Of a stretch of DNA of 64,000 nucleotides, positions 717 through 38,969 are shown piece by piece. Origin of the DNA: a virus (Duplodnaviria; Caudoviricetes); the IMG/VR virus record IMGVR_UViG_3300028833_000053. One strand, written 5' to 3'. The position numbers were made by a program, and so were the translations under genes. The stretch's first letter is position 1, and each line of letters opens with the position of its first letter. The notes below the pieces were generated by a model. The model searched no databases and was not told the origin of the DNA. It was given only the letters and a program-made list of their open reading frames with translations.

Positions 717-3001
717 TACTTTTTGTTTTCCACTATCCATGACGTGTCCTGAAATGTCATGTCGGGTTTCCCAAATTCCTCATCTACGGCTTTCATAACT
801 CCACCAAAATCTATAGACGGAACATAGTCGTGTCCAGAAGTAAACATAAATTTCAGTTTTTTTGAGTTTTCTATATCGTGTTTAACGCCATCGTGCGTAT
901 GTAAGCCATCAATATAAATCAAGTCGATATTTTTCAAGTTCTGGTTTTGTTCAATGAAAGTGTCCAATGTGCCTTTGTGTTTGACAATCCGGGGTTCGTC
1001 CTTGAAACGTCTGTCAAAGTCTTTTTCAATGCTTGACATTTGGTTGTGTTCAACTTTTCTGCCACCAACCATATAGCTGTAGCCATTTTCCCAGGGGTCT
1101 ATGCAATATATCTTGTCAACTTTTCCCGTATTGAGCATGATTTCTGCTCCTTCCCCACGGAACGTTCCAACTTCCACCACTGTGAGATTATGGTTTGTCT
1201 TTTCATATACATAGTTTACAAGGTCAATCAAACCAGCAACGCTTTTATTTTGTCTACGCATTTGGTGAAGTGGTTTGATTGTGAATATGCCCTTGTATTC
1301 GTTTTCCCCAAGTATTGCATTGACGATGTTCTCGCATGGTGTCTTTCCGTTGGGATAGTTCAAGCAATATTTTTCCCTGTACTCCCGGCGCAGTTCTTTT
1401 TTCATGTCGTTTCCATTCACCACGTTTTCAATGAACTTGTCCAACGTTTCACCTTTTTCAGCCCAGCAAAGTTCATGGCAGTCAATGGCGTCCTTTCCCA
1501 TCTTTGACCATATTTTTGGATTCATGTTGATGGTGTTCGCCATATAGCACACCGGTTTGTCCATGTAGAGATATTCGCAACGGAACGAGCCGCAATCATG
1601 TATCATCGCATCTGACCATTTCATCAACGGAACGTAGTCGTCTTCAGTTGATATGGTAAGCTCGTTGAACAACTTTATCACATAGGAGTTTTCCAATTTG
1701 CCACGCCTGTATTTCATATACAGATTTGGATGCGGACGCCATATGAATTCAACTTTGTCCTTCCATTTCTATACAACGTCATAGACCATCTTTGCGCATT
1801 TCATGAAACTGGAATAGTTTCCATATTTGTTCTTCTTATCGACCGTGTGGTGGAATGACAGAAGTATTCGTTTCTTCCCGTTGCTTTTCCATGGATCGTT
1901 GAATTGCTCCTTTGGCGTATTCAAATATTCTTCCTGTGGGTGTCCAGTGAATATGTCATTGACATTGACGCATACATCTTCTGAATCTTCGCAATTGATG
2001 TATGCTTGATCATACTGTTTTCTTTGGGTGATGTTGTGCCACGCCAAGGTGTATCTGACGTTTATCAGTTTGAAGTTTTCAACGATGTTCTTCTTTATGG
2101 ATTCATCGCGCAAGAACAATTCATTCTCATACTGCATTGGGGGAACAACTAAATCCGCTTGCTATATGTTTCTCCTCACCTCTTCAACAGAGTCTGCCAG
2201 GATTGTTTTGAATCTTCCGTCTTTGTCCAGGAAATCCCGGAGTATCCATGTCTTGTCCTTCGTTGTAATCAACTTTGCGTTTGGCAACTTTGGTTCAGTT
2301 CTAAATATATTTCCTGAAAAGAACATGACCTCAATTGGAATTCCATCTTTCACCTTTTGCCGCAAGGCTTCTTGTTTGTCAATTCGCGTTCTCTTAAGCA
2401 GAAAGGTTTCTATGTCAGGCATTGTCGCTTGTGTTCTATAGTATGGTATGCCCAGTTTTCTTCTATTGATTAGTTTTACCTTGTTGGGGTAGGGTGTTTT
2501 CATGGTTTCTCTTGAAATCACAATTCGTTTGAACCTGCAATCGCAGTTCGCCAAGTCCTGTAACGTCACGTTCTGGGATTTTGCATAACTCGCTGGACTG
2601 AGCAAAAACACTGGCTCCTCGTGTGATTCAATCATTCGCCTTACTCGCAAAAGATATTTTTCCTCCACTATTCTGGAAATGTCGTTGGAAATGTGTTCAT
2701 ACGGCCATTTCCCATCTGGATATGTATCGTATGACGTATGAGTTTCAGTCAGCTTCTTGTCTTCCTTGTGGTGTACATAATGGATTTCTATGTTCCCTTT
2801 GTCCACTTTCACAACGAACGTGTTCGGGCGTATTGTGCTTCTTTCCACAGCATAGTCCATCCAATTGATGTGTTCCCAGTTTTTCATTATATAAAGAATG
2901 GAATGATACGGGCATATCATCCCGCAAAAGGGGTTGTTGTATTGAAGATGCTTGAATCGGTACACCCAAATACCACAACAGTTGTTTGAAATCAATAACA
3001 T
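716..3001 (-). CDS. Multidomain surface-glycan modification protein (DUF1919-like + CDP-glycerol glycerophosphotransferase-like + class I SAM methyltransferase), 761 aa, 2 in-frame TAG
   Basis: Three in-frame ORFs joined at TAG 2164-2162 and 1771-1769; the RPHP motif lies in the gap just after a TAG; ISNNC..Y..PF at the N-terminus; VEVGTFRG / YIDGLH / GHDY at the C-terminus. Confidence 0.75.
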
Positions 3002-4344: not shown

Positions 4345-6366
4345 TTATCTGCGCTTCACGTCCTTTGACATTGGATAGTCGTGATCCTCAGGATATTCTG
4401 CAATCTGAAGGTTCTCGGCCCAGATGTAGTGCGGCTTTTGCGCTCCCTCGGTTGTTGCATCAACGTAGGTGAACGTCTCTTGGAAGTATGGGTGTTCCTC
4501 GGCCTCTTGCGTGTCTGCCGCGTCACCATCACGAACAAGTTCTTCAAGATAGTCGTTTGCGGAATCGTCGGTCATCTTCAAGATGTCCGGGTCGGTCTTC
4601 TCGATGTACGCCACAACGTAGTTCAGAGCCTCTTCGGCGCTGAATGCGTATGCGTTGTAGTTGTCGGTCATGTAGCCAGAACCCCACCAAAGTTTCACGA
4701 TGTAGAGTTTGTCACCGTCGGATTCTGAATTCACAAGGGTCAAGTCCTCGTCTTCCAGCTTCCAACCTGAAACCTCGTTCACAGGTTCTTCTTCATCTTC
4801 AAGTTCTTCCTCATCTTCTCCCTGGTCAAACGTGCTTTGGTATCCGCAGTTCACGGCGTCGGCCAAGTCTGGGGCATTGAGTTCAATCTTGTCAATGCTG
4901 CCATAGAACTCGCTGTTCTCAACTTCAACATGGTCTGCTTCAATCTTGTCCCTTGAAAGGTCTGCGTGTACCCAACCATGTCCATAGTCGAAGCAAATGT
5001 CCATCGTGCGTCTTGCAACTTCGTGTCTCAGCTCCTCTTCGGCCTCGTCCTCGTCATAGCTGTTCGTTGAATATGAGATAGTGGCAATTCCACCATCAAT
5101 CTTCGCCGTTGGGGTTTCGCCAAACTCATGTTCTTGCCAGAAGAAGTCGTTGTAGTAGTCCTCTGCGGCAATTTCATACTCACCTGGCATGATTTCAACC
5201 TGGCACTCGTAGTAGCTCTCATAGTCCTCCTCCATCTTGACATACTTCTTTTCCAAGATGCTTCCGAACTTCAAGTCCTTGATGTGGACGGTATAGCCCG
5301 CACCGGCTCCTTCCTTCACAAGTTTCCTGGATTCGGCTGCCATCAACGGAACCTTCTCGCCAATTTCCAACATCTTCAGTTTCTTCGCAGGAATGTCCTC
5401 TTGCTTGTGGCTGATGAGGAAGCTGTGGATATGGTTCATAGTTGTTCCTGACAAATAGTCGTTCAAAAGCCAGAAGTCAAGGTGAGAACCATCCTCGCTT
5501 CTTTCAAGCCTTGCAACGGGAGTGTTGTAGGAGAAGAGCGTGAAACCATCATCGTCCTCTTCCTCTGATGCCTTATGCCCAAATGACTTGCGTCCATTCT
5601 GTGGCACAAGTTCCTTTCTGATACCACCCTCGGCGTAGTAGTCGTCGCCCTCGTATTCGTCATCATAGCTGGCAAGATGCTCCAACTCACTCTTAATCAA
5701 GTCCGTATTCTTCCAGCACCAATCGTCAAAGCCCTTGTGGTTGGTGTCTTCCGGGTGTTCCTCGTCATAGAGTTCCCCAAGGTTGCCATAGAACTCGGTT
5801 GGTTCAATCTTGCATCCCTTGTAGAGAATTGCCCAGTCAACGTCCTTTGCTCCCTCTATTCCATAAAGGGATTCGTTGACAAACTTCAACACCTTTCCCT
5901 TATTGGTCTTGAACAGTTTTCCGCTCTCGGAAACGTATTCAAGTTTCCCGTATTTGTTTTGGAAATAGTTTGAGCGGTTGAACTATTCCTTGGTGATGTT
6001 TAGCTTTTTCATTGTCTTTTTGCTCTCGGTAAAAGTTGGATCTTCATTCAAGATGAGTTCGCCTATTCTGACAAGTCCATTCAAGTATCTTCCAAGTCCC
6101 CCAAGATGGGTTCTCTTTGCGCGTTCAACGTCTTTCTTCAACGCAGCTGTTGCAGGGTAGTCCCCTTCCCATGCGTCAAGGATTTCTTCGCATAGATCGT
6201 CCAAGATTGCGGCGTTTTGGATACCCCTTCCGGTTCTCAAACAGAATTCATGCCAACGTCTGACGGAATCTATGGTTTCTTGGTTGAGTTCAAGCCTCTC
6301 CGGTGGAACCTCGTAGAAATGGAACTCCGATTCCCGAATAACTTGTCTGGATTTGTTTTTCTTCAT
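4345..6366 (-). CDS. Acidic multi-module hypothetical protein, possibly virion-internal (1 in-frame TAG)
   Basis: ORFs 5983..6444 and 4345..5892 are in frame via TAG: KKLNITKE*FNRSNYFQNKYGKLEYVSES; GTAAATA at 6399-6393. Confidence 0.7.
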
Positions 6367-16196: not shown

Positions 16197-17876
16197 ATGG
16201 ATAATTACTGCACCAAGATAAACGAAAAGACAGACGAGGTGCTTCTTGCCATAAAGAAGTCCTCGCAAAAGATAGCCGACATCGTATCACAAACGGCTGG
16301 TCCGTATGGGCATAACGTGATGCTCATCAACGGGAAATCATGCAGAATCACGAAGGATGGAATTTCGGTTCTGCGTTCAATCACCGAGCCGGAAACTGAA
16401 TCAGATTTCATTGCGTTGAGCGTCATTCGCTCCGCTTCCGACGAGACGAACAGAAAGGCTGGTGACGGAACAACGGCAACCTGCATTCTTGCGAACGAGA
16501 TTTTCCAGCAGGGCTACAACTTCCTCACAGCGGGCTGCAATGGCAACTTGTTGAGGAACGGCATTACAAAGGCTTCTGAAATTGCACAGAAGTTGGTTGT
16601 TGACAATTTGACTACGCCTGTAAAGGATGACAAGGACATCTACAACGTGGCGAAGATTTCATCAAATGGTTCCGACGAAATTGCCAAGATTCTCACGGAC
16701 GTGTTCTCCAAGATTGGCAAGGATGGCATGGCGCGTGTGGAGCTTTCCAACACTGACAAGACCACCTCCAAGATTGTGTATGGCATGACCATTGACCGCG
16801 GGTATGAGTCCCCCTATTTCGCAACAAATACGCATGGCGAGGCCGTCCTTGACAACCCGGTTATTCTTCTCATCAACAAGAGGTTGTCCGTCCTTGGCGA
16901 ATTGCTGAAGCCGTTTGAGACATTGGCGAAGCTCAACCGCCCGATTCTTGTTGTGGCGGAGGGATATGATCCCGACATTCTCAACACGTTCATCCTCAAC
17001 AAGATGCGTGGTCTGCCAATTTGCGCGATTCTTGCCCCGAACTATGGGGAGCACCGCACGAAGATGATGGAAGACCTTGCCGTTGTCACCGGTGGCAAGG
17101 TGATTTCCCCCGCAACGGGAATCACTTTGGAGCAGATTACAACAGATCCAACCATCATGGGTACGGCAAAGCAGGTTATCGTGAACACGGATTCCACGTC
17201 CTTCATCGCCGACACGACAAAGATTCAGAAGGACAGATTCGACGCCCGTGTTGCCGAAATCAAGCATGAGTTGGAGGAAGAGAAGCTGGCCGACTATGAC
17301 AGGAACATTCTCAAGACAAGAATGGCACGTATGGTTTCGGGCATTGGCATCATCAGCGTTGGTGGTGCAACCGAGGCCGAAATGCACGAAAAGAAAGACT
17401 TGGTTGACGACTCTTTCGCGTCCGTGTCAAGTTCCCAGAAGAAGGGCATTGTATCGGGTTGCGGCTTGACCTACCTTGCAATCCACGATGCCCTTTATAC
17501 TTGGTTGAACGATCACTTGGCCGAACTTTCATCCGAGGAGGCAAGCGGGTTCAAGGTGTTTGCGGATTCCCTCACAAAGCCGTTCTTGACGATTTGCGGG
17601 AATTCCGGACACCAGAATTCTCAGTACGCCCTTGGAATCGTTCAGACCACCAACCGCGACGAACACGCCAATGACACCGCAATGAAGAACTGGACAAAGT
17701 GCGTTGATCTTGGAACCGGTGAAATGATTGACGTAATGGAGAAGGGAATTGTGGATTCTGCGGCCGCCGTCATCGAGACCATGAAGAATGGTGCCGCAGC
17801 GGGTGCGCAGTTGCTTTCTTTGAGTGGTGTTGTCAATACTCCGCCAAAGCCATTGCCCGTTCCGCCCCAGGCGTAA
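16197..17876 (+). CDS. groEL: Phage-encoded chaperonin GroEL
   Basis: GPYG; ITKDG; AGDGTTAT; DRGYESPYF; VGGATEAEMHEKKD. Confidence 0.95.
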   Translation: MDNYCTKINEKTDEVLLAIKKSSQKIADIVSQTAGPYGHNVMLINGKSCRITKDGISVLRSITEPETESDFIALSVIRSASDETNRKAGDGTTATCILANEIFQQGYNFLTAGCNGNLLRNGITKASEIAQKLVVDNLTTPVKDDKDIYNVAKISSNGSDEIAKILTDVFSKIGKDGMARVELSNTDKTTSKIVYGMTIDRGYESPYFATNTHGEAVLDNPVILLINKRLSVLGELLKPFETLAKLNRPILVVAEGYDPDILNTFILNKMRGLPICAILAPNYGEHRTKMMEDLAVVTGGKVISPATGITLEQITTDPTIMGTAKQVIVNTDSTSFIADTTKIQKDRFDARVAEIKHELEEEKLADYDRNILKTRMARMVSGIGIISVGGATEAEMHEKKDLVDDSFASVSSSQKKGIVSGCGLTYLAIHDALYTWLNDHLAELSSEEASGFKVFADSLTKPFLTICGNSGHQNSQYALGIVQTTNRDEHANDTAMKNWTKCVDLGTGEMIDVMEKGIVDSAAAVIETMKNGAAAGAQLLSLSGVVNTPPKPLPVPPQA

Positions 17877-17937
17877 AAATTCTGAAAAATTCTGCGAAAA
17901 GCACTTTACAAGATCCTGGTTTTCGCGTATAATGTAA

Positions 17938-18030
17938 GTGTTGTTTGTGGTGATGTGAAAGATACTTCGACGAACAATGAATTAAGGAAATTCACCAAAC
18001 CTCTTTCACAAGTTTTCCCAAGCAACACTT
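17938..18030 (+). ncRNA. Candidate Y RNA 1 (Ro60 ligand)
   Basis: Own promoter TTTACA-17-TATAAT at 17905-17933; stems GTGTTGTTTG/CAAGCAACAC and TGTGAAAGA/TCTTTCACA around a TGGTGA/AGTTTTCC loop; TACTTC motif. Confidence 0.7.
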
Positions 18031-18060
18031 CAATTTATCAACAGAGAAAGGACATTGGCG

Positions 18061-19719
18061 ATGAGCAAGTTCAATAGCAAGAAGCCGGGAGTTCAAATGG
18101 CGAAGAACTTCATGGGTGAGGACGCATATGTGTTGTCTGACAAGGAAGCCTTGACTTCCATGGTCATGACCACGTTCCTTTCGGATTCCTATTATGTTAC
18201 GGAAAGCGACTTGGTTAACAACATCCTGACCCTTGTTGGGAAGTGCGGCAACGAGTTCGCCGCGAAGTTGGCTCTTTATGCAAGGACGAAGGGAAACATG
18301 CGTTCGGTGAGCCATTTGCTTGCCGCCATTGTCTGCAGGGATTCAGACCATCCATCATGGCTCAAGTCCTTCTACGAGCATATCGTGAACAGGCCCGATG
18401 ATATTTCCGAGATTCTGGCTTGCTATGGCAAGTTGAATGGCTTTGACCTCACTTCGGGAAAGCTGCGCAAGATTCCAAACTCGATGAAGAAGGGCTTTGC
18501 CACGGTGCTTTCGGGTCTTTCCCCCTATCAGATTGACAAGTACAAGATGAATGGGAAGTCATTGTCGTTGGTGGACATCTTGAACCTTGTTCATCCTACG
18601 CCGACCGACAAGAACAGGGAAGCCTATCGCAGGCTGATGCATGGGGAGTCCCTTGATGGAACTTACGACGCCAAGATTCTTGAGAAGGAAATGGCCGAGA
18701 CGGGCAAGAACGCCAGCAACGAGCAGGAACTGTTTTTGGCAAAGCACGATGCCATCAAGTCCGTCTTGGATTCGGGAATGCCCATAATGAACCTTCTCCG
18801 CAACCTGCACAACATCATGATTTACGCCCCAGACCTTGTGGAAGAGGCTATCAAGCAGCTCACGAACCGAGACAAGATTGTGAACAGCAAGTTGCTGCCA
18901 TTCCGCTTCATGTCTGCCTATGACGTTGTAGACAAGATGGAACTGTCGGACTACATTGTTTCTGAAACTCCAAACACCGCGATAAGGTTTGAGTCGGAGG
19001 TTGCCCGCATGGACTACAGCCAGCTTGAAACAATCAAGGCGAAGGTTCTGAAGGCAATTGAGGACGCCATGTCCATTGCCTGCGAGAACGTCCCAGACCT
19101 TGAGGGCAACTGCGCAATCCTTATCGATCATTCAGGTTCCGTGCGCGGTGACTGGGGTGGAGATTCCAGGGTTTCGCCTTGGAGCAATGTACGTACCGCC
19201 CATATCGGGAACCTGTTTGGCTCCATCGTGGCTTTCAAGCAGAAGGATGTCTACATTGGGATGTTCGGCGACAAACTCATTTCACCGAAGATGGACCGCA
19301 GCGTTGGCTTGCTTGAGTTCAACAAGAAGTCCTACGACGAGGGTGACAAGTGTGGTGGAGCGACCGAGAACGGACTGTACAAGTTCTTGGAGAATGTCAT
19401 CAAGGAAAAGAAGCACATTGACAACTTCATCGTGTTCTCCGACATGGAAATCGGCAATGGTGGCGAGGGTGGATGGGACCGCACAAGCACTGCAAGGTGC
19501 AAGTTCCAGGACTTGTTCAAGGAGTTCCGCAAGATAAACCCCAACTGCCTCACTGTGTGCTGCAACATCCGTGGTCAGAGTGGAACTTCCGTGTTCAATC
19601 CCAACCTCAAGATTCTGAACGTCTCAGGGTGGTCTAACAACATCTTTGACGTGATTTCCATGTACAAGACCGGCAAGTTGAAGTCAATGGTTGAGGACAT
19701 CGAGAAAATGAGCATTTAG
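18061..19719 (+). CDS. Ro60/TROVE domain RNA-binding protein with vWA domain (Rsr-like)
   Basis: ALYAR...MRS; NLLRNL; LLPFRF; MIDAS-like IDHSGS; FSDME; SGWS. Confidence 0.92.
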   Translation: MSKFNSKKPGVQMAKNFMGEDAYVLSDKEALTSMVMTTFLSDSYYVTESDLVNNILTLVGKCGNEFAAKLALYARTKGNMRSVSHLLAAIVCRDSDHPSWLKSFYEHIVNRPDDISEILACYGKLNGFDLTSGKLRKIPNSMKKGFATVLSGLSPYQIDKYKMNGKSLSLVDILNLVHPTPTDKNREAYRRLMHGESLDGTYDAKILEKEMAETGKNASNEQELFLAKHDAIKSVLDSGMPIMNLLRNLHNIMIYAPDLVEEAIKQLTNRDKIVNSKLLPFRFMSAYDVVDKMELSDYIVSETPNTAIRFESEVARMDYSQLETIKAKVLKAIEDAMSIACENVPDLEGNCAILIDHSGSVRGDWGGDSRVSPWSNVRTAHIGNLFGSIVAFKQKDVYIGMFGDKLISPKMDRSVGLLEFNKKSYDEGDKCGGATENGLYKFLENVIKEKKHIDNFIVFSDMEIGNGGEGGWDRTSTARCKFQDLFKEFRKINPNCLTVCCNIRGQSGTSVFNPNLKILNVSGWSNNIFDVISMYKTGKLKSMVEDIEKMSI

Positions 19720-19757
19720 GGCTTTACACGGAACGCGGTTTGACGTATAATTAATGT

Positions 19758-19840
19758 AGCCAGTGGTGAATGGATTGTTACTTCTGATCTGTTAAATCAA
19801 CCTAGTTACCCAATCCACGTTTTTCCCTGGCTTTTCTTTT
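19758..19840 (+). ncRNA. Candidate Y RNA 2 (Ro60 ligand)
   Basis: Own promoter at 19723-19751; stems AGCCAG/CTGGCT and TGGATTG/CAATCCA around a TGGTGAA/CG(T)nCC loop; TTACTTC; U-rich tail. Confidence 0.72.
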
Positions 19841-19905
19841 TAACGCGCCTTTACAACGGGCGCGTTTTATTGTATAATAAAACATAGCAACAAAGGAGAG
19901 CAGAT

Positions 19906-20211
19906 ATGCGACATGTAACCGTACCAAACTACACGGTCAACCGCCCCTATGACGGGGGCTTTGGATACCATACCTACAACTTCACCAGTCCGACGAAGGA
20001 CAGGGTTTATGTCAAGGTTCTGAAGTTTGTTGAGAGCCATCCAAAGTGCAAACGCAGGGATATTCAGTTTGGCGTGTGGGGAAACCACAACAAGAGCAAT
20101 TCCACGTTGTTCGCCCAGATGCTCTACCACGACATCCTTGACTACAACAAGAATTTCGAGTACAGGGTCACGCGCAAGGGCAAGAACATTTTGAGGAAGG
20201 TGTTCAAGTAA
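19906..20211 (+). CDS. Hypothetical basic protein, possibly wHTH
   Basis: Promoter at 19850-19878; AGGAG RBS. Confidence 0.7.
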   Translation: MRHVTVPNYTVNRPYDGGFGYHTYNFTSPTKDRVYVKVLKFVESHPKCKRRDIQFGVWGNHNKSNSTLFAQMLYHDILDYNKNFEYRVTRKGKNILRKVFK

Positions 20212-20230
20212 AGACGAAAGGCAAGACCTT

Positions 20231-20422
20231 ATGAAAGCCATTTGCATTGTTCTGTTCGCAATAGCGTTCTTCGCATTCGGAATCAGGTGGATTGCGTCCG
20301 ACCCCAATGTTCCCCTTGTTGGGAGGGTTCTATGCCACACGGCAACCACGGTTGTGTCTGGACTAATGATATTCGCAGCGTATTCAACAAGAAAGAACGA
20401 TGATGAAGATGAGCAGGCATGA
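20231..20422 (+). CDS. Small membrane protein
   Basis: Two hydrophobic segments; ATGA overlap with next gene. Confidence 0.6.
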   Translation: MKAICIVLFAIAFFAFGIRWIASDPNVPLVGRVLCHTATTVVSGLMIFAAYSTRKNDDEDEQA

Positions 20423-21309
20423 AATTCGACCTGGCCATAGGCAATCCACCATATACTTCTGGCGTGGACATTGACGTACACAAGTCCTTTTCGGGCATCT
20501 CGAAGAGAATTGTGTTTGTGCATCCCTCCACGTTCTTGATTTCACACAAGCGCAATTCCTTCAAGAAGCAGATGAAGCGGATTGACATGAGGAAACTGGA
20601 AACCGCCCATCTGTTCTGGGGAAACGCCCTATTCAACATCCAACTTTACATGCCCATTGTCATTTCAACTTGGAACGAGGAGAAAACCAACGAAACAGTC
20701 CATGTGATTGACGATGCCTATAACCACTGCGAATATGACGTTGACTATGACAAGGTTCACCACTACGGCAAGGACTATCCCAGGTTCTTGGATTGGGTGA
20801 ACAAGAACGTCATGCCACTTGTGGAGAAGAATGGTTCTGTTGGAGGACATGGGGCGTATGAAGTGACGGAGCAATTTGGATTCAAGATGTCCACAATGCG
20901 CGGGCATCCCCCGCTTGACGATGGGGATTCTGCTTTGCGTGACGATTTCTACACCATACTTCCACAGTCGGACAAGGTGGTGCGCGAAAACTTCTGCAAG
21001 TTGGGTGATTCAGACCCAAACTACAAGCGCATGTTCTCCTTCAAGACGGAAGAGGAACGCGAGAATTTCCTTTGGTATTTGAAGACCAAGTGCGTCAGGT
21101 TCAACCTATCCATATTCAAGTTCTCCAACATGCTGATGAGGGGAGAAATGACGCAGATACCGTGGATGGACTTCACAATTAGATATTCCGACGCGGATTT
21201 GAGGAAATTGTGGAACATTGACGATGATTTGTGGGCATTCATTGATGGGAAAATCCCGGATTATTATTTTGATTATTCTTATCAAACCCCCTTTACAAGC
21301 AGACAGTAA
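20419..21309 (+). CDS. N6-adenine DNA methyltransferase, catalytic/TRD half
   Basis: Starts MKFDLAIGNPPY (motif IV); no motif I visible. Confidence 0.75.
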   Translation: MKFDLAIGNPPYTSGVDIDVHKSFSGISKRIVFVHPSTFLISHKRNSFKKQMKRIDMRKLETAHLFWGNALFNIQLYMPIVISTWNEEKTNETVHVIDDAYNHCEYDVDYDKVHHYGKDYPRFLDWVNKNVMPLVEKNGSVGGHGAYEVTEQFGFKMSTMRGHPPLDDGDSALRDDFYTILPQSDKVVRENFCKLGDSDPNYKRMFSFKTEEERENFLWYLKTKCVRFNLSIFKFSNMLMRGEMTQIPWMDFTIRYSDADLRKLWNIDDDLWAFIDGKIPDYYFDYSYQTPFTSRQ

Positions 21310-38881: not shown

Positions 38882-38969
38882 TCGGCAATACCCGAGTTGG
38901 TAGCAGGGGAGGGACTGTTAATCCCTTGGCGAAAGCCCGTCGCTGGTTCGAGTCCAGCTTGCCGAGCCA
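38882..38969 (+). tRNA. tRNA-Asn(GTT), long variable arm
   Basis: AGGGA-CTGTTAA-TCCCT; GGC-GAAA-GCC arm; CCA. Confidence 0.85.

What the first reader, a model, noticed from the sequence alone, without database searches (positions are those of the whole stretch)
17905..19840. Phage Ro60 gene bracketed by two promoter-driven Y-RNA-like genes
Seen: two RNAs (17938-18030 and 19758-19840), each with its own perfect TTTACA-17-TATAAT promoter. Their stem sequences differ completely but the architecture is the same: terminal helix, internal loop TGGTGA / G(T)nCC, second helix, then TACTTC. Conserved loops with covarying stems point to a protein-binding site. Known: bacterial Y RNAs are encoded beside Rsr/Ro60 and bind through the 5'/3' stem. 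These two lack the YrlA tRNA-like domain, so they may be a distinct minimal class. RNA 2 instead displays TGAT-CTGTTAA-ATCA, the same 7-nt loop as the tRNA-Asn anticodon loop.
Basis: partly seen in the sequence, partly recalled or inferred. Interest (0 to 1): 0.8.

Follow-up and report, generated by a model that had tools for sequence, protein, structure and literature searches.

The report
Phage Ro60 with two minimal Y RNAs
A 434-kb gut or rumen phage encodes the ring-shaped RNA-binding protein Ro60 flanked by two small RNAs that share a conserved "handle" found beside Ro60 genes in many unrelated phages. They are very probably its partner (Y) RNAs, stripped of the usual tRNA-like domain, and one displays only a copy of the tRNA-Asn anticodon arm.

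Summary
Two structured RNAs of about 80-95 nt (17936-18030 and 19756-19834) flank a TROVE/Ro60 gene (18061-19719). Each follows an exact TTTACA-N17-TATAAT promoter.

Both RNAs share one handle:
- a terminal helix
- a bulged U
- two GG:CC pairs
- UGA opposite a U-rich strand
- a second helix
- UACUUC

In 13 related megaphage loci the helices covary while the loops stay fixed. A covariance model built from the handle hits only these two sites in the 434-kb genome. It also finds members beside TROVE genes in crAss-like phages (including cultured crAss001), phage G, Atuin, CcrColossus, Thermus phage phiLo and a 635-kb phage. It finds nothing in T4 or KVP40, which lack TROVE.

In relatives the same handle carries YrlA-type permuted tRNA mimics or whole tRNAs. 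Here it carries only a small hairpin (RNA1) or an Asn anticodon-arm copy (RNA2). That loop is invariant in 12 homologues.

Ro60 binding is inferred, not shown. RNA1 is also the leader of the Ro60 mRNA.

Phage Ro60 with adjacent Y RNAs is already known, so this is a new variant of a known kind. Earlier notes of this scan describe the same handle family on other DNA.

The parts
17905..17933 (+). Promoter P1 (TTTACA-N17-TATAAT) driving RNA1 and the Ro60 mRNA
   Evidence: The equivalent promoter is present in all 13 related loci.
17936..18030 (+). RNA1: handle plus a small apical hairpin (17978-17994) and an A/C-rich tail. It is also the 5' leader of the Ro60 mRNA.
   Evidence: Fold. Covariation. 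Model R1 75 bits. No terminator before 18061.
17948..17968 (+). RNA1 conserved 5' strand of the handle: bulged U, GG, UGA, helix 2, UACUUC
   Evidence: Invariant columns in A1. The same layout recurs in phages of other lineages.
18061..19719 (+). Ro60/TROVE protein gene (552 aa), ending in TAG. A Shine-Dalgarno-like AAAGGA sits 7 nt upstream.
   Evidence: Pfam TROVE E 3.7e-17. PHROG 850. PDB 9KOP/9L5Y E 2.7e-10. It is the only TROVE gene in the genome.
19723..19751 (+). Promoter P2 driving RNA2
   Evidence: A promoter at this position precedes every RNA2 homologue except L003, where it is missing; most copies keep TTTAC in the -35.
19756..19834 (+). RNA2: handle plus a tRNA-Asn anticodon-arm copy
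   Evidence: Fold. Covariation. Model R1 73 bits.
19785..19799 (+). Anticodon-arm mimic: 4-bp stem and 7-nt loop CUGUUAA
   Evidence: The loop is invariant in 12 distinct homologues. Two stem pairs change on both sides. The module 3' of the hairpin varies freely. The loop is the same as in tRNA-Asn at 38882-38969.
19832..19866 (+). U-tract and G+C-rich terminator hairpin ending RNA2. Its loop holds the -35 of the next promoter.
   Evidence: z -5.0 with the hairpin included.

Best explanation
The two RNAs are phage-encoded Y RNAs, that is, dedicated partner RNAs of the Ro60 protein encoded between them.

Expression. Host sigma-70 RNA polymerase transcribes both from strong early-type promoters. 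RNA1 is made as the first ~90 nt of the Ro60 mRNA. It is then either cut off or acts in cis. RNA2 is a separate transcript that ends at the U-tract and hairpin.

Ro60 docking. In each RNA the 5' and 3' ends pair into a handle: helix 1, bulged U, two GG:CC pairs, UGA opposite a U-rich strand, helix 2, then single-stranded UACUUC. The fixed bases of this handle are most likely the Ro60 docking site.

Displayed module. The apical part is the variable effector module that the particle presents.
- In related phages this module is a YrlA-type permuted tRNA mimic or a whole tRNA.
- In RNA1 it is a small hairpin.
- In RNA2 it is reduced to a faithful tRNA-Asn anticodon arm.

Likely role. By analogy with Deinococcus, Salmonella and Thermus phage phiLo, the RNA would tether Ro60 to another factor or gate its RNA-binding cavity. 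For RNA2 that factor would be something that reads the Asn anticodon loop.

What is shown: the sequence features, the covariation and the genomic association with TROVE genes. What is inferred: expression, Ro60 binding and any partner.
For: 1. The structure is under selection. Pairing is 96.9% and 91.6%, with 14 of 21 and 19 of 20 compensatory pairs and 0 of 500 shuffles as good. Slid controls pair at only 37-50%. RNAalifold finds the same handle on its own.

2. The handle is specific to the Ro60 locus.
- Model R1 at E<=10 hits only the two flanking sites in the 434-kb genome.
- Model R2 at E<=1 hits only the two flanking sites in each of two complete relatives of 414 and 418 kb.

3. The handle is associated with TROVE genes in unrelated phages.
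- Eight crAss-like or large contigs have 1-4 hits each, on the Ro60 strand.
- cr111_1, csAssE-Sib, LR745206 and phiLo have hits.
- Phage G, Atuin and CcrColossus have hits.
- Among 47 metagenome Ro60 loci there are 56 hits, all on the Ro60 strand.

4. A prediction held. R2 hit crAss001 at 96600-96775 before I knew that phage had a TROVE gene. A Pfam search then found gp96 (TROVE) ending 95 nt upstream of the hits. T4 and KVP40 have neither TROVE nor hits.

5. There is a link to a bona fide Y RNA family. The same handle encloses RNAs that match Rfam YrlA: L006 at 34.5 bits and CcrColossus at 42 bits.

6. The literature supports the kind. Y RNAs lie within a few kb of Ro60 on the same strand and bind it through the 5'/3' stem (PMC4201824). 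A phage Ro60 binds phage-encoded Y-like RNAs (PMC12135203). TROVE is an early gene in crAss001 (PMC8375218).
Against: - No transcript, RNA end or binding data exist for this phage.
- No Rfam Y RNA or YrlA model matches either RNA, even at E<=10.
- The published bacterial Ro60-contact motif GNCGAAN0-1G is absent from RNA2. In RNA1 it is present only in partial form (GACGAA) and is not kept in all relatives.
- RNA1 has no terminator of its own, so it may never exist as a free RNA.
- In some crAss-like contigs handle RNAs lie up to 20 kb from the Ro60 gene, so linkage is not always tight.
- The genome has no RtcB, and the neighbouring genes are DNA methyltransferases. Context therefore gives no hint of a partner enzyme.
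Confidence: 0.8

Rival explanations
1. RNA1 is mainly a cis-acting leader. Ro60 (or another factor) binds the handle on its own mRNA and tunes translation or stability as feedback. RNA1 would then not be released as a trans-acting Y RNA. This does not exclude the main reading for RNA2.
For: There is no terminator between RNA1 and the start codon, only ~30 nt holding the ribosome-binding site. The promoter-handle-RBS-Ro60 layout is the same in all 13 megaphage loci and in L006 and L014.
Against: In M. smegmatis, Y RNAs encoded upstream of rsr are processed from one precursor and bind Rsr as free RNAs (PMC4201824). RNA1 has the same handle as the separately transcribed RNA2. In other phages handle RNAs sit downstream of Ro60 or kilobases away.
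Confidence: 0.3
2. The handle is recognised by some other factor, for example a processing nuclease or an unknown phage protein. It would serve to express or mature tRNA-derived RNAs. Its linkage to Ro60 would reflect a shared role in tRNA metabolism, not direct binding.
For: Several handles enclose RNAs annotated as ordinary tRNAs: csAssE-Sib Tyr and Lys, and cr111_1 Gln. UACUUC directly precedes tRNA position 1 in these. Some members lie far from Ro60.
Against: None of the 34 ARAGORN-called tRNA genes in this window carries the handle, and R1/R2 hit only the two Ro60-flanking RNAs in the whole genome; in cr111_1 only the RNAs next to Ro60 carry it. Presence of the handle tracked presence of a TROVE gene in all 5 extra genomes tested. 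Handle position and form match the Ro60-binding module of YrlA.
Confidence: 0.12
3. RNA2's anticodon-arm hairpin is a leftover of a handle-borne tRNA-Asn such as relatives still carry. It would have no function of its own, and only the handle would matter.
For: crAss-like relatives carry a whole tRNA-Asn(GUU) in the same handle (L033 and L034), so descent by deletion is plausible.
Against: The 7-nt loop is invariant in 12 distinct homologues. Two stem pairs covary, and the adjacent 10-12 nt of the module are freely replaced. That pattern indicates selection on the hairpin itself. crAss001 has an analogous minimal RNA showing an Arg(UCU)-type loop.
Confidence: 0.1
4. The hairpins are chance structures, terminators or C/D-box-like sRNAs.
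For: There are weak Rfam matches to C/D snoRNA models at 16-20 bits, E 0.6-3. GUGGUGA resembles a C box.
Against: The scores are far below the gathering thresholds. There is no D box (CUGA) on the 3' strand and no tandem G-A pairs. Covariation and the TROVE association cannot be explained by terminators.
Confidence: 0.01

Closest known systems
YrlA (Y RNA-like A; Rfam RF02553; Chen et al. 2014, PMC4201824; Wang et al. 2018, bioRxiv 10.1101/312249)
   Same: Both are encoded next to Ro60 on the same strand, with the 5' and 3' ends paired into a two-helix stem that has an asymmetric internal loop. A conserved YUAY-like tract (here UUAC or AUAC within UACUUC) sits where the stem meets the displayed module. 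In relatives the very same handle encloses RNAs that match the YrlA model.
   Different: There are no T or D stem-loops and no match to RF02553. The GNCGAAN0-1G motif is absent (RNA2) or partial (RNA1). In CcrColossus the Rfam model begins at the position of helix 2 of this handle, so it does not cover the outer helix with its conserved bulge and loop.
YrlB (Salmonella, M. smegmatis) and Yrn2 (D. radiodurans): second Y RNAs without a tRNA-like domain (PMC4201824)
   Same: Short Ro60-associated RNAs that lack the tRNA mimic and coexist with Ro60 in the same locus.
   Different: [quoted passage not shown] Here both RNAs of the phage are of the minimal type, no tRNA-like partner was found in the genome, and the handle is conserved across many phage lineages.
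Thermus phage phiLo Ro60 with Yrl1 and Yrl2 (PMC12135203; PDB 9KOP, 9L5Y)
   Same: A phage Ro60 (the nearest solved structure to this protein) with two phage-encoded Y-like RNAs beside the gene. Binding and a ternary complex with host PNPase were shown in vitro.
   Different: The published Yrl1 and Yrl2 were picked upstream of the gene from CGAA motifs. The handle found here matches two other RNAs immediately downstream of the phiLo gene.
Metazoan Y RNAs (Ro60 binds a bulged helix formed by the 5' and 3' ends; cited in PMC12135203 and PMC4201824)
   Same: A terminal stem interrupted by a single bulged base on the 5' strand and extra bases on the 3' strand, with the conserved bases mainly on the 5' strand, and a variable apical module.
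   Different: The sequence differs (GGUCCGA there, UGGUGA here). These RNAs use bacterial promoters instead of RNA polymerase III. There is no detectable sequence homology.

Membership tests
Y RNA (functional class: Ro60-bound small RNA) | Physically bound by Ro60 | not testable with these tools
   No RNA-protein prediction or experimental data are available. Binding is inferred from co-occurrence.
Y RNA (functional class: Ro60-bound small RNA) | 80-130 nt, with 5' and 3' ends paired into a long stem that has an internal loop or bulge | tested here: met
   RNA1 is about 93 nt and RNA2 about 79-85 nt.
Y RNA (functional class: Ro60-bound small RNA) | Encoded within a few kb of the Ro60 gene on the same strand (bacterial and phage Y RNAs) | tested here: met
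   RNA1 ends 31 nt before the start codon and RNA2 starts 37 nt after the stop codon. Both are on the + strand.
YrlA (Rfam RF02553) | tRNA-like domain with conserved T and D stem-loops | tested here: not met
   ARAGORN and the Rfam tRNA and YrlA models find nothing in 17000-21000. The best YrlA score anywhere in the genome is 22.5 bits, inside the tRNA array.
YrlA (Rfam RF02553) | Score at or above the gathering threshold (69 bits) | tested here: not met
   No match even at E<=10. Nothing at gathering in the whole window.
YrlA (Rfam RF02553) | GNCGAAN0-1G motif near the 5' end | tested here: not met
   RNA2 has no CGAA. RNA1 has GACGAA followed by CA, and relatives have GACGAU or AACGCA at that position.
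YrlB / Yrn2-type second Y RNA | [quoted passage not shown] | tested here: inconclusive
   Both RNAs lack the tRNA-like domain and form a long interrupted hairpin. The apical parts are not small pyrimidine-rich loops, and there is no sequence model for YrlB to test against.
Phage 'handle' Y-like RNA family (defined here; not in Rfam 15) | Helix 1, a 1-nt bulge, RG:CY pairs, NGR opposite a U-rich strand, a helix 2 of about 9 bp, then UACUUC at a fixed distance | tested here: met
   Both RNAs score 73-75 bits against R1 and R2. The same layout appears in 30 representative RNAs from 12 phage lineages.
C/D-box sRNA / kink-turn RNA | C box (RUGAUGA) paired with a D box (CUGA) forming tandem G-A pairs | tested here: not met
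   The 3' strand is U-rich with no CUGA or GA. Rfam snoRNA matches are 16-20 bits against thresholds of 42-43.

The most novel reading that the evidence does not exclude
The handle is a portable Ro60-docking cassette that phages use to display tRNA parts: whole tRNAs, permuted tRNA bodies, or a bare anticodon arm as in RNA2. The displayed anticodon is the business end. The particle would act as bait, decoy or sensor for host factors that read or cut anticodon loops, such as anticodon nucleases or tRNA-modifying or tRNA-charging enzymes. Supporting hints are that near-identical handle-borne tRNAs in related phages differ essentially only in the anticodon, and that the Asn loop of RNA2 is the only constrained part of its module.
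Probability: 0.2. Interest if true: 0.8.

Novelty: new variant of a known kind. Interest (0 to 1): 0.55.

Why it matters
Ro60 and its Y RNAs are conserved from bacteria to humans, where Ro60 is a lupus and Sjogren's autoantigen. What the RNA's variable module recruits is still largely unknown outside Deinococcus.

This locus and its relatives contribute four things:
- A sharply defined Ro60-locus handle. It is not in Rfam 15, and my limited searches of the paper library found no description of it. Its fixed bases can be mutated directly.
- A natural series of cargoes on one handle, from a whole tRNA down to a lone anticodon arm. This points to the anticodon loop as the functional surface.
- A cultured system for testing. 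crAss001 and Bacteroides intestinalis have homologous RNAs right after the early TROVE gene gp96.
- A hint that the cognate RNAs of the structurally studied phiLo Ro60 may be two RNAs downstream of the gene, not the published upstream ones.

Tried and rejected
- Rfam at permissive thresholds over the locus gave only noise-level C/D snoRNA and lncRNA matches. I rejected a kink-turn or C/D reading because the 3' strand has no D box.
- I looked for the bacterial GNCGAAN0-1G or CGAA motif. It is partial in RNA1, absent in RNA2 and not conserved. Whether UACUUC corresponds to that motif or to the YUAY tract of YrlA is unclear. The Rfam alignments of L006 and CcrColossus place it differently, so I claim only positional equivalence.
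- I looked for an RNA-repair or nuclease partner. The genome has no RtcB. The neighbours are a GroEL-like chaperonin, unknowns and DNA methyltransferases.
- A regular-expression and helix descriptor written in Python recovered the family, but it also gave 10 hits in 5 shuffles. I did not use it as evidence on its own.
- I considered an unanchored pattern scan of IMG/VR and dropped it. With 14-17 fixed bases the expected chance matches rival the true ones.
- The Annual Review on bacterial Ro60 (PMC10870794) and the record NC_024711 are not held.
- No complex prediction was possible, because the tool takes proteins only.
Full report
**What is there**

The window comes from a complete 434-kb phage record with terminal repeats. 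The window alone carries 34 tRNA genes.

- At 18061-19719 lies a 552-aa TROVE/Ro60 protein gene. Evidence: Pfam E 3.7e-17, PHROG 850 "RNA-binding protein" E 1e-34, and nearest solved structure Thermus phage phiLo Ro60. It is the only TROVE gene in the genome.
- Exact TTTACA-N17-TATAAT promoters sit at 17905, 19723 and 19850. The window has ten such sites against none in 100 shuffles, so this is the phage's strong host-type promoter.
- The first two promoters each run straight into a stably folding RNA with z-scores of -3.8 and -3.6.

**The shared handle**

Read base by base, both RNAs have the same layout although their helices share no sequence:
- a terminal helix formed by the 5' and 3' ends
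- a bulged U
- two G-C pairs
- UGA opposite a 6-7 nt U-rich strand
- a second helix of 7-9 bp
- single-stranded UACUUC

RNA2 then forms a 4-bp stem with the 7-nt loop CUGUUAA, identical to the anticodon loop of the phage's own tRNA-Asn. RNA1 has a small hairpin and an A/C-rich tail instead.

**Selection on the structure**

The viral and metagenome collections hold thirteen loci with a Ro60 that is 79-100% identical to this one. All have the same arrangement of promoter, RNA1, Ro60 and RNA2.

- On ten sequences 96.9% of cells pair, 14 of 21 pairs show changes on both sides, no shuffle out of 500 matches this, and slid controls pair at 40-50%.
- Adding six divergent members gives 19 of 20 compensatory pairs. 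This includes the two pairs after the bulge, which switch from GG:CC to AG:CU.
- RNAalifold recovers the handle unaided.
- The loop bases are invariant.

In RNA2 the CUGUUAA loop is invariant in 12 distinct homologues. Two of its stem pairs covary, and the following 10-12 nt are replaced freely. One contig has an identical Ro60 and an identical RNA1 but a different 3' half of RNA2, and it still keeps the hairpin.

**Association with Ro60**

Within megaphage genomes:
- A covariance model of the handle (R1) hits only the two flanking sites in the whole 434-kb genome, even at E<=10.
- A second model (R2, built on 16 members) hits only the two flanking sites in each of two complete relatives of 414 and 418 kb.

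In other phages:
- In eight crAss-like or large contigs whose Ro60 is about 50% identical, R2 finds 1-4 members each, on the Ro60 strand, from 50 nt to 20 kb away.
- In 47 metagenome Ro60 loci with only 1.5-kb flanks, it finds 56 members, all on the Ro60 strand.
- It also finds members next to the TROVE genes of cr111_1, csAssE-Sib, a 635-kb phage (LR745206), Thermus phage phiLo, Bacillus phage G, Arthrobacter phage Atuin and Caulobacter phage CcrColossus. There is a weak hit in the archaeal virus HGTV-1.

An unplanned blind test:
- I chose crAss001, T4 and KVP40 as presumed Ro60-less controls.
- R2 hit crAss001 at 96600-96775.
- A Pfam search then showed that crAss001 gp96 is a TROVE protein ending 95 nt upstream of those hits.
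- T4 and KVP40 have neither TROVE nor hits.

That test is therefore passed.

**Relation to known Y RNAs**

What the literature holds:
- Chen et al. (PMC4201824) showed that bacterial and some phage Ro60 genes are accompanied by YrlA RNAs. These have a Ro60-binding stem with a GNCGAAN0-1G motif and a tRNA-like domain.
- The same paper showed that second, non-tRNA-like Y RNAs (YrlB, Yrn2) exist.
- A 2025 paper showed that phiLo Ro60 binds two phage-encoded Y-like RNAs and host PNPase (PMC12135203).

So "phage Ro60 with adjacent Y RNAs" is a known kind.

How these two RNAs compare:
- They do not match Rfam YrlA or any Y RNA model.
- They have no T or D arms.
- They lack a conserved GNCGAA motif.

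They are nevertheless linked to YrlA through relatives:
- The same handle encloses an RNA scoring 34.5 bits on YrlA upstream of Ro60 in L006.
- It also encloses several YrlA-matching RNAs in a CcrColossus array of at least seven.
- In those alignments the Rfam model begins at helix 2 of this handle, so the outer helix with its conserved bulge and loop is not part of the Rfam family.
- UACUUC sits where YrlA has its conserved YUAY tract or the end of its Ro60-contact motif. The two alignments disagree on which, so I claim only positional equivalence.

**One handle, many cargoes**

In relatives the handle carries three kinds of module:
- permuted tRNA bodies of the YrlA type, some with an added anticodon arm
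- normal-order tRNA-like bodies or complete tRNAs, joined at the acceptor end, with UACUUC directly before position 1
- short hairpins

ARAGORN calls Lys(UUU) four times, Arg(UCU) and Asn(GUU) twice each, and Ile, Gly, Gln, Pro and Tyr once each.

Near-identical copies differ essentially only in the anticodon:
- L011 (GAU) and L015 (UCU) are identical over 126 nt apart from the anticodon.
- L033 (UUG) and L034 (UGG) differ at three positions, one of them in the anticodon.

A crAss-like relative carries a whole tRNA-Asn in the handle. RNA2 of the megaphages looks like that design reduced to the anticodon arm. crAss001 has a comparable minimal RNA with an Arg(UCU)-type loop. In this megaphage both handle RNAs are of the minimal type, and no YrlA-like RNA was found anywhere in the genome.

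**How it most likely works**

Both RNAs would be made early by host polymerase. crAss001 TROVE is an early gene (PMC8375218).

- RNA1 has no terminator before the Ro60 ribosome-binding site. It is therefore the leader of the Ro60 mRNA and must be cut out to act in trans, as happens in M. smegmatis (PMC4201824). Alternatively it acts in cis as a feedback site. I give that rival 0.3, and it is not exclusive of the main reading.
- RNA2 is a separate transcript that ends at a U-tract and a strong hairpin.
- The fixed handle bases are the likely Ro60 docking site, and the apical module is what the particle presents.

I put 0.8 on "Ro60 partner RNAs", about 0.7 on the handle being the direct Ro60 site, and about 0.4 on the Asn hairpin engaging a specific anticodon-reading factor. 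None of these steps has been measured.

**Novelty and earlier scan notes**

- I rate this a new variant of a known kind.
- The handle is absent from Rfam 15.
- I found no paper on Y RNAs in crAss-like phages.
- Earlier notes of this scan describe the same handle family, including anticodon-arm display and anticodon switching, on other phage DNA. They agree with what I found independently here but are not independent evidence.

Noticed in passing
L046 (Thermus phage phiLo, MH673673) 4517-4580 and 4705-4788: Two RNAs with the same handle (helix 1, 1-nt bulge, GG:CC, helix 2, UACUUC, and ACUUUCC on the 3' strand) lie immediately downstream of the phiLo Ro60 gene. They overlap the annotated hypothetical CDS phiLo_25. 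Fold z-scores are -3.7 and -5.7. The published Yrl1 and Yrl2 were chosen upstream of the gene from CGAA motifs, so the cognate RNAs may have been missed.
   Followed up: partly
L011 1375-1500, L015 1461-1586, L013 1663-1789; L033 2264-2400 vs L034 2072-2208: Handle-borne tRNAs in near-identical crAss-like phages differ essentially only in the anticodon: GAU, UCU and UUU in the first set, UUG and UGG in the second. This suggests diversifying change focused on the anticodon.
   Followed up: partly
L058 (Bacteroides phage crAss001, MH675552) 1466-2370, minus strand (record 95,965-96,869): The 900-nt unannotated gap right after the early TROVE gene gp96 holds several handle RNAs. One has a 5-bp stem and the loop CUUCUAA (Arg-UCU type). 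Others carry T-arm-like and D-arm-like pieces. This phage is cultured and has published infection RNA-seq.
   Followed up: partly
L053 (Caulobacter phage CcrColossus) 1810-2916: An array of at least seven handle RNAs lies upstream of the TROVE gene. Each starts with a helix followed by GGUGGCGUAG and ends with UUCCCC plus a helix. Three match Rfam YrlA weakly. One overlaps an annotated tRNA-Gln and shows a CCACCA tail inside its acceptor-like hairpin.
   Followed up: partly
window 19717-19719: The Ro60 ORF ends in TAG at exactly the position where relatives end in TGA or TAA. Earlier notes on this genome call the phage TAG-recoded. Here TAG seems to act as a stop, which would fit early genes keeping the standard code.
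   Followed up: partly
window 19842-19878: The terminator hairpin after RNA2 holds the -35 hexamer of the next TTTACA-N17-TATAAT promoter in its loop. The same nested design recurs in L001, L003 and L004.
   Followed up: no
L059 3195-3273 vs window 19755-19835: A metagenome contig has a 100% identical Ro60 protein and an identical RNA1, but the 3' half of the RNA2 module differs. The handle and the Asn hairpin are kept. This suggests recombination within the RNA gene.
   Followed up: no
L005-L009 and L014, last ~45 nt before the Ro60 start codon: The crAss-like Ro60 genes share a conserved A/U-rich leader (UUUCUUUUAAUAAC ... AAAUAGUGA) behind a Bacteroidetes-type promoter (TAnnTTTG). Its role is unknown.
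   Followed up: no
L010-L013, ~40-260 nt after the Ro60 stop; L007 2790-2950: Further conserved, apparently structured non-coding stretches lie next to Ro60. They do not fit the handle model or any Rfam family at E<=1.
   Followed up: no
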